Below, piece after piece: positions 21,001-24,000 of a stretch of DNA of 46,289 nucleotides. A program made the position numbers. The stretch is from Candidatus Hydrothermales bacterium (GTDB lineage: Bacteria; Hydrothermota; Hydrothermia; Hydrothermales; JAJRUZ01): NCBI GenBank assembly GCA_039630575.1, contig JBCNUW010000016.1, forward strand, positions 1-46,289, read 5' to 3'. Numbering within the stretch: the first letter of the stretch is position 1; each line of letters begins with the position of its first letter.

Positions 21001-24000
21001 ACACTTCCACTTTTAGAAGGCACAGATGGAAAGTTAAAGATGAGTAAATCTTATGGTAACAGTATTAATTTTCTGGACGATCCAAAAGATGTTTTTGGAA
21101 AGGTTATGTCAATACCTGATAGTTTGATCTTTAAATATTATAAGGTTGTTCTTTTGAGAGAAGACGAAGAAATTAAAGAGTATATTGAGAAAAAACCTCT
21201 TGAAGCAAAAGAAGAACTTGCTTTTTTAATAACTAAAATCTTTCATGGAGAGGAGAAAGCAATCAAAGCAAAAGAATATTTCTTTAAAACCTTTAGAAAA
21301 AGAGAAATTCCACAGGAAATTCCAGAACTAAGGATAAAAAATAAAAAAATTTTTGAAATACTCTTTGAAACAAAGATTGTTCAAAGTAAAAGTGAGGCAA
21401 AACGTTTAATAAGACAGAAAGGAGTAGATTTAAATGGAAAAACGATCGAAGATGAAAATTATGTGCCACAAAAGGGTGAACACGTTTTAAAAGTTGGGAA
21501 GAGAAAGTTTTTTAAAATAATTTTAGAATAATGAGAGTTTTTGTATTTGGAGCAACAGGTTCCATAGGTAAAAGTTTCTTTTCTCTTGTTAAAGATTTTC
21601 CTGAAATTGAAATAGTAGGTATTCAAGCCCATACAAATGCTAAAAAATTAGTTAAGATAAAGAAAAAATACAGAATTGAATATGCCTTTCTAACAGGAAA
21701 ACAAAGCGACTTTAAAGATATAATTCATGATAGAGAAAAACTAAAAGAATTTGTTACATCTAGCAGGGTAGATAAAGTGCTATTTGGAGCCTCCGGTGTT
21801 GATCTTGTTGACATATTCTTTGATCTTCTTGAAAAAAACAAAATTATATGTATGGCAAATAAAGAAATTATTGTTGCTTTTGGAGAAATAATAAAACAAA
21901 AAAACTTAAATAACCTTATTCCAGTAGATTCAGAACACTCATCGATTTTTAGAATAATTAAAAATTTAAACTTTAAAGATATAAAAAAAATAATTTTAAC
22001 TGCTTCAGGTGGTCCTCTTTATAATGTAGAAAACTCAAAACTATCCGATATAAAAGTTAAAGAAGCTCTCAAACATCCACGGTGGAAAATGGGTAAAAAA
22101 ATCACTATAGATTCAGCAACACTAATAAATAAGGGATTTGAAATAATAGAGGCACATTACCTTTTTAACATAGAACCTGAAAAAATTGAGGTTCTCTATC
22201 ATCCCGAAAGTAAAGTTCATGGAATTGTCCTACTTAATGACGGAACGTATATAGCCCATATTAGTGAATCCGACATGAGAATACCCATTTTAAACGCACT
22301 TTTTTATCCAGAAATAAAAGATTATAGAACAATGAAAAAGTTTTATGGAATTTTAAATTTTGAAAAAATAAAAAAAAGTAAAAGGAGACTCATAGACTTA
22401 TGTTTAAAGGCTTTAAAAGAAAAAAAGGGAAAACCAGCCTATTTAGTAGGTGCTGATGAAGAGCTTGTAAAGCTTTTTTTAAAGGGAAAAATAAAATTTA
22501 ATGAAATTGAAAAAATTCTTTACAGAATTTATAAAAAATCTGCTAGTGTTAATGATAAAGATTTTAATGAGATTTTAAAAGTAATTGAAATTTCAAGAAA
22601 AATGGTGTATAAAGAATTAAAATGATTTCGACAATAGCAGCCACACTAATATTACTTTCTATACTTATTTTTATACATGAATTAGGACATTTTTTAGTAA
22701 GTAAAGCTTTGAAAGTCCCGGTTGAGGAATTTTCTATTGGGTTTGGTCCTAAAATTTTCTCTTTCAAAAGAAAAGAGACAACTTTTAAAGTTTCTCTTGT
22801 GCCTTTTGGTGGTTATGTGAAAATTTTTGGTGAGGATATAGAAGGAGAAAACTCATTCTGGTTAAGACCCTTTTATGTTAAATTTTTAATTTTGATCTCC
22901 GGTGTTCTTTTTAACTTTCTTTTCGGTTTCATGATAATTTTTCTTTTGTTTTTTATTTTTGGAATAGTTGAATCGGGTCCTTATATTGATGAACCTAAAA
23001 AAAACACTCCAGCCCATATAGCTGGACTTGAATTTGGGGACCGAATATTAAAAGTAGATGGAAAAAATTTTGTAAGATGGAAGGAATTCTATGCAGTTTT
23101 TCAAGATGGTGATACCCATTTAGTTAAGGTTTTAAGAAATAACAAAGACTCTTTAGAAATAAAATTATGGGGTATATGGAATGATACTATATCAAAGTAT
23201 GAAACAGGTATTTTACCAGCCCTTTTTCCTGTAATAGGAGAGATTATTCCGGGTTTACCTGCAGAAAAAGCTGGATTAAAAAAGGGTGACACTGTATTAA
23301 GGATAGACCATACAAACATTAAAAAATGGGAGGAAATACAGAGTTTGATTGAGAATTCAGAAGGTAAAGAAATCACTGTAGAGGTAAAAAGGGAGAAAGA
23401 TACTCTGGTATTTAAAGTTAGACCTATAAAAATTAACGGTTCTTATAAAATCGGAATAAGAGCAGACATAAATATCTTAAAACTTCCTTTTTTTAAAGCC
23501 ATTATATATGCCTGGGAGGAAAGTTATTTTATAATTTACCAAACCTTTAGATTTATCTATCTTGTAATAAAAGGTAAGGCTCCACTTGAATCTTTTGGTG
23601 GTCCTGTTATGATAGGTAAGGTTGTTGGTGAGACAAAAGATAAAGGTCTTTCTTCCCTACTTTTTATACTTGCCTTTATATCAATCAATCTAGCTCTTAT
23701 TAACTTACTTCCCCTACCTGCTCTTGATGGTGGTCATTTGATTACTATTACAGTTGAAGCTATAGTAAGAAGAAGATTATCCTTTAGGATTAGATCATTA
23801 ATACAGTTAATTGGTTTTGCCCTTCTTATTTCAATATCAATTTTAATTACTATATTTGATATTCATCGTATTCTAAAATAAATTTATATTCTTTTTAAAA
23901 TCTTCTCTTGAACGAAAACATACATAGTTGGTATAAAAACAAGACTAACTAAAAGTGAAAACGAAAGACCACCAATTACTGATAATGCAAGGGGTTTCCA

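What a model noticed while it worked through the whole genome (the two positions that open the first line are those of the whole stretch)
21531..22625. MEP and PdxJ pathways run without DXP synthase in Hydrothermales
dxr, ispD/F, ispE, ispG, ispH and pdxA/J are present but dxs is absent from the whole order, with no mevalonate route or RubisCO-like MTA shunt enzyme seen here. DXR keeps its catalytic motifs though it has diverged fast.
Evidence so far: dxs TIGR00204 0 of 11 order genomes, 19 of 21 other Hydrothermia; dxr 26 of 27, scoring 258-304 bits in the order vs about 390-460 in full-length others; motifs conserved.
(Added by a program. Inside this text positions count along the whole contig: contig position 1 is position 1 of the stretch shown here. 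"Call 12" and the like, gene names such as g00115 and contig names such as C1 are that model's own, and its searches are not shown. The text may have been shortened before it was handed on; [...] marks where a part breaks off. The agent that wrote the report below was given it as the finding of a first reader that could run no searches.)

Follow-up and report, generated by a model that had tools for sequence, protein, structure and literature searches.

The report
Isoprenoid pathway missing its first enzyme
A whole order of WOR-3 bacteria keeps two pathways that need the sugar DXP but has lost the enzyme that makes it; this puzzle is known from other bacteria, and here an unusual transketolase is the best, still untested, suspect.

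Summary
Window 21531-22625 is an intact DXR under purifying selection. dxs is found in 0 of 11 order genomes, against 96 of 97 WOR-3 genomes outside the class, and its ancestral slot is closed without a remnant. ispD/F, E, G, H, pdxA and pdxJ are present. PdxS, HMG-CoA reductase, RubisCO-like protein and xylulokinase were not found.

Two corrections. First, the loss is not special to this order: it recurs in families f9 (7/7) and f6 (2/2) of the class. Second, dxs-less MEP pathways are published (181 of 4,400 species, 172 unexplained; PMC10663253).

What is new is a candidate. The order's split transketolase, its only transketolase/E1/DXS-family enzyme found in four genomes lacking E1, has Gln in place of the donor-binding His473 in 11/11 genomes, versus 0 of 29 in dxs-bearing WOR-3 split enzymes read. 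Changes at this site can raise pyruvate use. Against it: His100 is kept, human transketolase also has Gln, 29 of 44 unrelated Gln-type genomes keep dxs, and f9/f6 have canonical enzymes.

The DXP source is not shown. Transketolase moonlighting gets about 35%.

The parts
21531..22625 (+). dxr, 1-deoxy-D-xylulose 5-phosphate reductoisomerase (364 aa); intact but fast-diverged
   Evidence: TIGR00243 258.7 bits; PF02670, PF08436, PF13288; motifs GATGSIG, ANKE, DSEH, TASGG, HPRWKMG, KITIDSA, NKGFEIIEA present; dN/dS 0.08 and 0.14 against two same-genus genomes
20371..21531 (+). tyrS, directly upstream of dxr (1-bp overlap); part of the block conserved in the order
   Evidence: TIGR00234 363 bits; tyrS-dxr-rseP order kept in 8 of 8 other order genomes read
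22622..23881 (+). rseP, directly downstream of dxr; the usual bacterial dxr neighbour (recalled)
   Evidence: TIGR00054 292.7 bits; synteny
19217..20374 (+). peptidyl-prolyl isomerase-like gene of the conserved block upstream of dxr; no DXP-making candidate
   Evidence: weak PPIase matches below cut-off; synteny
7310..13018 (-). 2-oxoacid:ferredoxin oxidoreductase subunit genes (ThDP enzymes); relevant only as a rival DXP source
   Evidence: TIGR02177, TIGR03710, TIGR02175 over cut-off, PorA/PorB-like below; such ThDP domains occur in dxs-bearing G003 too

Best explanation
Shown: the order lost dxs cleanly but keeps DXR, IspD-H, PdxA and PdxJ, and PdxS was not found, so it needs a small DXP supply for prenyl chains and vitamin B6. 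Inferred: DXP comes from a side reaction of the order's split transketolase (own genome C7:45625-46467 and C7:46473-47417, outside the window). It would decarboxylate pyruvate on ThDP and add the two-carbon unit to glyceraldehyde 3-phosphate, while still doing its normal pentose-phosphate job. Gln in place of His473 (E. coli numbering, placed by motif) would ease use of a donor that lacks the C3 hydroxyl. Low flux would also explain the relaxed divergence of DXR, IspD and PdxA. The other dxs-less families (f9, f6) would use something else, possibly their E1 enzymes.
For: The Gln motif (GEDG-FTQQ) is in 11 of 11 order genomes. His is kept in 9 of 9 dxs-bearing class split C-subunits read and 19 of 20 from other WOR-3 classes; the 20th has Ala. 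E1-alpha was not found in 4 of 4 further order genomes tested (93-96% complete), so transketolase is the only TK/E1/DXS-family enzyme found in them. Known bypasses were not found: RubisCO-like protein 0/61, true MTA phosphorylase 0 of 3 order genomes, FGGY kinase 0/5, HMGR 0/5, and RibB keeps G108 and D113 in 11/11. Literature: H474S/N raised pyruvate use 6- and 3-fold in Geobacillus TK, and E. coli H473N gave cross-product with no by-product (10.1101/719906, passages). 8 of 10 wild-type split TKs with the canonical His100 formed the pyruvate cross-product with glycolaldehyde (PMC13663882). Five Terriglobia genomes with the same Gln type have dxr and no dxs.
Against: The His100 equivalent (QGHP), the main TK/DXS difference in the donor pocket, is kept in 11/11. 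Human transketolase has Gln at the same place. Of 44 Gln-type genomes from other phyla, 29 keep dxs and 8 have neither dxs nor dxr, so Gln is an ordinary subfamily mark. The f9 (4 of 7 read) and f6 (2 of 2) enzymes are canonical full-length TKs. The match within WOR-3 is a single event on one stem. An AU test does not reject a vertical origin of the enzyme (p 0.42). The nearest solved split TK (6YAK) does not take pyruvate. H473N/S did not raise yield in E. coli TK. E. coli dxs suppressors mapped to aceE (22/26) and ribB (4/26), none to tkt. No activity was measured here.
Confidence: 0.35

Rival explanations
1. An unrecognised enzyme, non-homologous to DXS, makes DXP from a pentose phosphate or from 5'-deoxyadenosine/MTA products (MtnA is present); it may be shared by the class, which would explain repeated dxs loss.
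For: dxs was lost at least twice, probably three times, in one class. MtnA was found in 5/5 genomes, and SpeD/SpeE motifs are in the own genome. 172 published cases are unexplained.
Against: No candidate lies beside dxr, pdxJ, ispDF, ispE, ispG or ispH, or in the old dxs slot. The short IF-2B-like protein and class II aldolase do not track the loss. The cupin near pdxJ was not seen beside pdxJ in the 3 relatives read (G032's contig ends close by). No RubisCO-like protein and no true MTA phosphorylase were found.
Confidence: 0.22
2. The class-specific RibB (DHBP synthase) leaks DXP, or a reducible precursor, from ribulose 5-phosphate, as E. coli RibB G108S and D113G mutants do.
For: All 50 class RibB domains read differ from the solved enzymes around the suppressor sites: position 109 is Ser, Thr or Ala in 46/50, position 98 is Pro in 48/50, and the Phe138-Pro139 pair is changed in 50/50. 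Position 113 is Glu in f9 7/7. 82 of 91 lower-ranked homologues have the canonical pair. RibB is in 11/11 order genomes. A class-wide trait fits recurrent loss.
Against: G108 is kept in 50/50 and D113 in 11/11 of the order. The same odd residues are in 30 dxs-bearing genomes. Four dxs-less genomes from other phyla have canonical RibB. None of the observed changes is a suppressor in the paper I could read.
Confidence: 0.15
3. Another ThDP enzyme supplies DXP as a side product: a 2-oxoacid:ferredoxin oxidoreductase order-wide, or the PDH/BCKDH-type E1 where present.
For: There are 7 ThDP C-terminal domains over the cut-off in the own genome and 5-6 in two f2 genomes. An E1 operon is in the own genome, and G015 (f9) has two E1-alpha genes. 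aceE mutants are the commonest E. coli bypass.
Against: E1-alpha was not found in G027, G016, G032 and G036. I know no report of carboligation to GAP by ferredoxin oxidoreductases (own knowledge; not searched).
Confidence: 0.13
4. The cells take up deoxyxylulose, DXP or a later intermediate from other organisms; if MEP enters, reversible DXR could feed PdxJ.
For: Host supply has been proposed for Wolbachia (PMC1069646). The DXR NADPH-binding loop is altered in f2 (Ser to Trp in 4/4).
Against: No FGGY/xylulokinase in 5/5 genomes. No transporter candidate was seen near MEP genes. Other kinase families were not searched.
Confidence: 0.1
5. Artefact: dxs is present but unassembled or too diverged to detect.
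For: All order genomes are draft assemblies, and two are only 67-75% complete.
Against: 0/11 versus 96/97 outside the class. In the own genome the gene before mcsA abuts it with no gap or N. The unfiltered six-frame HMM search is negative.
Confidence: 0.02

Closest known systems
dxs-less MEP bacteria of Marshall et al. 2023 (PMC10663253): 181 of 4,400 species, including Anaplasmataceae, Rhodothermus, Koribacter, Veillonella
   Same: All MEP genes except dxs, no mevalonate route, no RubisCO-like shunt, source unknown.
   Different: No WOR-3 name is in their list. Here a whole order is affected, with further losses in the class, a second DXP consumer (PdxJ, no PdxS found) and E1 missing in four genomes tested.
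Wolbachia wBm (PMC1069646) and Rhodothermus marinus (10.1101/2021.05.17.444423)
   Same: dxs missing; transketolase or transaldolase promiscuity already suggested for wBm; source unknown in R. marinus.
   Different: wBm is a host-dependent endosymbiont, so supply from the host is possible. No residue-level candidate appeared in the passages I read.
E. coli dxs suppressors: AceE mutants, RibB G108S/D113G, YajO overexpression
   Same: They show that small changes in housekeeping enzymes give enough DXP.
   Different: E1 is not found order-wide, and RibB keeps G108 and D113. An aldo-keto reductase exists in the own genome (DkgB-like) but was not traced in relatives.
MTA-isoprenoid shunt of Rhodospirillum rubrum
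   Same: MtnA and a small cupin are present.
   Different: No RubisCO-like protein (0/61), no true MTA phosphorylase in 3 order genomes, and the cupin is not assigned to the methylsulfurylase family.
Split transketolase of Carboxydothermus hydrogenoformans (PDB 6YAK) and human transketolase
   Same: Best PDB matches for both subunits (E 2e-90 and 1e-83); His100 equivalent kept.
   Different: 6YAK has His where the order has Gln and does not take pyruvate; human TK has Gln.

Membership tests
DXR (class I, TIGR00243) | Three DXR domains with NADPH loop, metal-binding DSEH and Glu, and flexible-loop His/Trp/Met motif | tested here: met
   roles of the motifs recalled
DXR (class I, TIGR00243) | Score over the curated cut-off of 315.7 | tested here: not met
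   258.7 bits; all order genomes 304 or less; divergence, not truncation
DXR (class I, TIGR00243) | Converts DXP to MEP | not testable with these tools
   dN/dS 0.08-0.23 in five order pairs supports a working enzyme
dxs-less MEP pathway (Marshall 2023 definition) | dxr, ispD, E, F, G, H present; dxs absent; fewer than two mevalonate genes | tested here: met
   HMGR 0/5 by family search; HMGS and GHMP kinases by motif only
DXS (for the split transketolase-like pair) | Single ~620-aa chain over the TIGR00204 cut-off | tested here: not met
   two genes; 51 and 169 bits against 466
DXS (for the split transketolase-like pair) | Phe or Tyr in place of TK His100 | tested here: not met
   His kept in 11/11, while class DXS have Phe there; feature
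Split transketolase | Separate N and C genes with His26, His66, His100, His261, ThDP motif, Glu411 and Asp469 equivalents | tested here: met
   numbering placed by motif
Split transketolase | His473 equivalent | tested here: not met
   Gln in 11/11, as in human TK and 93 loci of a cross-phylum subfamily
MTA-isoprenoid shunt | RubisCO-like MTRu-1P isomerase | tested here: not met
   PF00016 0 of 61, controls positive
RibB-type DXP bypass | G108S or D113G | tested here: not met
   further suppressors in Kirby 2015 could not be read
DXP-dependent vitamin B6 pathway | PdxJ and PdxA present, PdxS absent | tested here: met
   pdxJ 9/11 in the order and 0/50 elsewhere in the class; pdxA 3/3; PdxS 0/3 in the order and 2/2 outside
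DXP-dependent vitamin B6 pathway | Source of 4-phosphohydroxythreonine (PdxB/SerC or alternative) | tested here: inconclusive
   SerC and ThrB motifs not found by pattern; no family search run

The most novel reading that the evidence does not exclude
The order replaced its transketolase with a Gln473-type split enzyme that naturally doubles as DXP synthase, making dxs dispensable. It would be the first natural, named stand-in for DXS outside the MTA shunt, and the same subfamily could explain dxs loss in Korobacteraceae.
Probability: 0.3. Interest if true: 0.78.

Novelty: new member of a known kind. Interest (0 to 1): 0.52.

Why it matters
How bacteria with a complete MEP pathway but no DXS get DXP is a stated open question (172 of 181 species unexplained, PMC10663253) and of interest to terpenoid engineers. 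This order is a clean test case: the loss is order-wide, two DXP consumers are kept, and most known bypasses are excluded. That leaves two small gene sets (the split transketolase and RibBA) that can be tested by one complementation screen and one enzyme assay. The three separate losses in one class allow a comparison of solutions.

Tried and rejected
- Replacement gene in the old dxs slot: none; lolD abuts mcsA.
- Candidate beside dxr, pdxJ or isp genes: none conserved.
- RubisCO-like protein: 0/61.
- Short IF-2B-like protein as a stand-in isomerase: also in dxs-bearing families, and no second IF-2B-like match in f9.
- Loss of class II aldolase as a sign of rerouted 5-deoxyribulose 1-phosphate: does not track; f3 (0/9) and f8 (0/5) have dxs and lack it too.
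- E1 as the order-wide source: not found in 4/4 tested.
- Xylulokinase uptake route: 0/5.
- Gln motif as a diagnostic of dxs loss: rejected, 29/44 keep dxs.
- Phe before the Gln as special: Tyr or Phe occurs there in dxs-bearing and MEP-less genomes.
- Horizontal origin of the transketolase: suggested by two trees, not established (AU p 0.42).
- Genome subtraction against dxs-bearing G003: only 1.2 of 1.66 Mb was available, 1,009 of 1,616 genes came out 'absent or weak' including core genes, and the printed list was cut, so it was uninformative.
- ThiG as a third DXP consumer: not found, by motif only.
- Kirby et al. 2015 could not be read, so further RibB suppressor sites were not compared.
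- No structure or complex prediction was run.

Full report
The gene. Window 21531-22625(+) encodes a 364-aa protein that matches DXR in NCBIfam (TIGR00243 258.7 bits, cut-off 315.7), Pfam (three DXR domains) and the PDB (best 3a06, E 8e-58). It lies between tyrS and rseP, an order kept in 8 of 8 other order genomes read. The catalytic motifs are present in the window protein (their roles are recalled). In a FastTree of 32 DXRs, root-to-tip length is 1.63-1.97 for 9 order rows and 0.72-1.18 for 20 other class rows. Low G+C explains only part of this: four f9 rows of similar G+C reach 1.08-1.16. dN/dS is 0.08-0.23 in five order pairs and 0.07-0.10 in three control pairs. Between the two families of the order DXR is 43-45% identical, like RseP (41%) and IspDF (42-45%), and lower than TyrS, IspG, PdxJ and transketolase (60-66%). 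So DXR is relaxed but under purifying selection.

dxs is really missing. It is over the cut-off in 0 of 11 order genomes and 39 of 50 other class genomes. Among 97 WOR-3 genomes outside the class, 94 are over the cut-off, 2 have split pieces and 1 has none, so chance loss from draft assemblies is about 1%. An HMM from 30 class DXS sequences, run without filters on all six frames of the own genome, finds only the two transketolase halves and E1-beta. In most of the 30 dxs loci fetched, dxs is followed by the homologues of own C10:19043 and C10:19527 (mcsA and mcsB, names recalled). In the own genome a lolD-like gene (name recalled) abuts mcsA, with no gap or N.

The consumers are there. dxr is in 60 of 61 class genomes. 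IspF, IspE, IspH and PdxJ pass their cut-offs in the own genome; the IspD domain (143 against 181) and PdxA (180 against 290) do not. IspG passes in 5 of 5 genomes. pdxJ is in 9 of 11 order genomes (the misses are 75% and 67% complete) and 0 of 50 other class genomes. pdxA is in 3 of 3 order genomes and 0 of 2 others. PdxS shows the reverse: 0 of 3 and 2 of 2. HMG-CoA reductase was not found in 5 of 5. That these pathways run is inferred from conservation.

Correction 1: the loss recurs. Families f9 (7 of 7; 87-96% complete) and f6 (2 of 2; 77% and 87%) also have dxr without dxs. In a quick IQ-TREE RpoB tree of 29 rows (the careful search did not finish; SH-aLRT support only), the order is sister to the rest of the class. 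f9 groups with dxs-bearing f3 and f5 (98), and f6 lies outside them (86). That gives at least two and probably three losses.

Correction 2: the phenomenon is in print. Marshall et al. 2023 (PMC10663253; I read parts 1-4 of 6, which hold all the main text, and part 1 of the supplement) found 181 of 4,400 species lacking only Dxs, 172 of them unexplained. No WOR-3 name is in their list. Passages in three other papers say the same for Wolbachia wBm, with transketolase or transaldolase suggested (PMC1069646), Rhodothermus marinus (10.1101/2021.05.17.444423) and six Acidobacteria (PMC5462960). Keyword searches of two WOR-3 genome papers found no mention of isoprenoids or MEP, nor of dxs in the one searched for it (supplements not seen). 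A search for phrases naming a Dxs alternative returned only the Marshall paper. Subscription papers are not in the library.

Known bypasses. RubisCO family 0 of 61. True MTA phosphorylase 0 of 3 order genomes; G015 of f9 has one. FGGY kinases 0 of 5. E1-alpha is in the own genome but was not found in G027, G016, G032 or G036, while G015 has two. RibB keeps G108 and D113 in 11 of 11; these are the E. coli suppressor sites in PMC3424233 (passages). MtnA is in 5 of 5 genomes, with or without dxs. A second IF-2B-like protein and the class II aldolase do not track the loss.

The transketolase lead. Each order genome gives one match to the split transketolase N-subunit, whose best PDB match is the Carboxydothermus enzyme. 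It keeps the His100 equivalent where DXS has Phe, so it is a transketolase, not a split DXS. Its C-subunit reads GEDG-FTQQ in 11 of 11 order genomes. His is found at that place in 9 of 9 dxs-bearing class split C-subunits read and in 19 of 20 read from other WOR-3 classes; the last has Ala. The 20 were picked from the second matches listed, not all of them. By motif the position is E. coli His473, which binds the donor's C3 hydroxyl. H474S and H474N raised pyruvate use in the Geobacillus enzyme; in E. coli the same changes did not raise yield, though H473N removed the by-product (10.1101/719906, passages). Eight of ten wild-type split transketolases formed the pyruvate cross-product with glycolaldehyde (PMC13663882, parts 1-2 of 3 read; supplement not seen). 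The Carboxydothermus enzyme did not (PMC7661550, passages).

Testing the lead against other phyla. I tested 44 of these genomes plus 6 chance-hit genomes. 29 of 44 have dxs. Of the 15 without, 7 have dxr (five Terriglobia, one Manganitrophaceae, one unnamed bacterium) and 8 do not. One chance-hit Acidobacteriaceae genome also has dxr without dxs. Completeness figures were not given for these genomes. Human transketolase has Gln too. The motif therefore marks an ordinary subfamily and at most permits dxs loss. In two trees the order's C-subunit sits among these foreign Gln-type enzymes, apart from the other WOR-3 rows (9, 25), but an AU test does not reject a single WOR-3 clade (p 0.42). The f9 and f6 enzymes read (4 of 7 and 2 of 2) are canonical full-length transketolases, so this lead cannot cover the whole class.

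The RibB lead. All 50 class RibB domains read (of 56 genomes with a match) deviate from solved enzymes next to the suppressor sites, at positions 98, 109 and 138-139. 82 of 91 lower-ranked homologues keep the canonical 138-139 pair. A class-wide trait would fit repeated loss, but 30 dxs-bearing genomes share it and G108 is unchanged.

Mechanism. Shown: loss of dxs, retention of the consumers, absence of the listed bypasses in the genomes searched, and the residue patterns. Inferred: a housekeeping enzyme supplies low DXP flux. Most likely (0.35) this is the Gln-type split transketolase condensing pyruvate with glyceraldehyde 3-phosphate. Rivals are an unknown enzyme (0.22), RibB leakage (0.15), another ThDP enzyme (0.13), uptake (0.10) and artefact (0.02). 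A genome subtraction meant to find an unknown enzyme was uninformative because only 72% of the comparison genome was held, so that rival is not narrowed.

Verdict. A real, order-wide case of a known and unsolved phenomenon, with one residue-level candidate that is cheap to test and has honest evidence against it. Interest 0.52.

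Noticed in passing
window 468-1673 (+): Full-length serpin (PF00079, 393 bits) in a WOR-3 genome.
   Followed up: no
L314, L315, L316, L317 (dxr of G016, G036, G044, G032): In family f2 the DXR NADPH-binding loop has Trp where others have Ser (GATGW; 4 of 4); cofactor use may differ.
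   Followed up: partly
L124:1471-2370 (G000 C17:10280-11182): PdxA of the own genome has Gln where G016 and G032 have the first metal-binding His (role recalled) and scores far below the cut-off.
   Followed up: partly
L120:1477-2298 (G000 C9:17757-18581): Class II aldolase fused to a MazG-like domain, downstream of serS; G003 has the unfused aldolase in the same place; other f1 genomes have frames of the same length.
   Followed up: partly
L100:1444-2172 (G000 C4:55670-56401): Short IF-2B-like protein with Ser in place of the MtnA catalytic Cys, upstream of a trmFO-like gene (name recalled) in three order genomes; found in 9 of 11 order genomes and in several other families. Function unknown.
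   Followed up: partly
L334-L383: RibB of the whole class has unusual residues near the active site, and in f3, f5 and f9 the fused GTP cyclohydrolase II motif is missing, with shorter frames.
   Followed up: partly
L145-L260: A cross-phylum subfamily of split transketolases with Gln for His473 (93 loci; Acidobacteriota, Gemmatimonadota, Myxococcota, Omnitrophota, Planctomycetota, Nitrospirota, Patescibacteria); I saw no characterised member among the PDB hits except the distantly related human enzyme.
   Followed up: partly
window 18591-19166 (+): 191-aa hydrophobic protein with no NCBIfam or Pfam match, near dxr in five order genomes and in G003; its start recalls polyprenol/phytol kinase-like proteins (recalled, untested).
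   Followed up: partly
L332, L333 (G016 C3, G032 C36): In family f2 the transketolase pair lies tail-to-tail with a two-gene block that includes ispDF; not so in the own genome.
   Followed up: partly
G015 (L403; C75, C33): The dxs-less family f9 genome has a true MTA phosphorylase, MtnA, two E1-alpha genes and PdxS but no class II aldolase; a separate test case.
   Followed up: no
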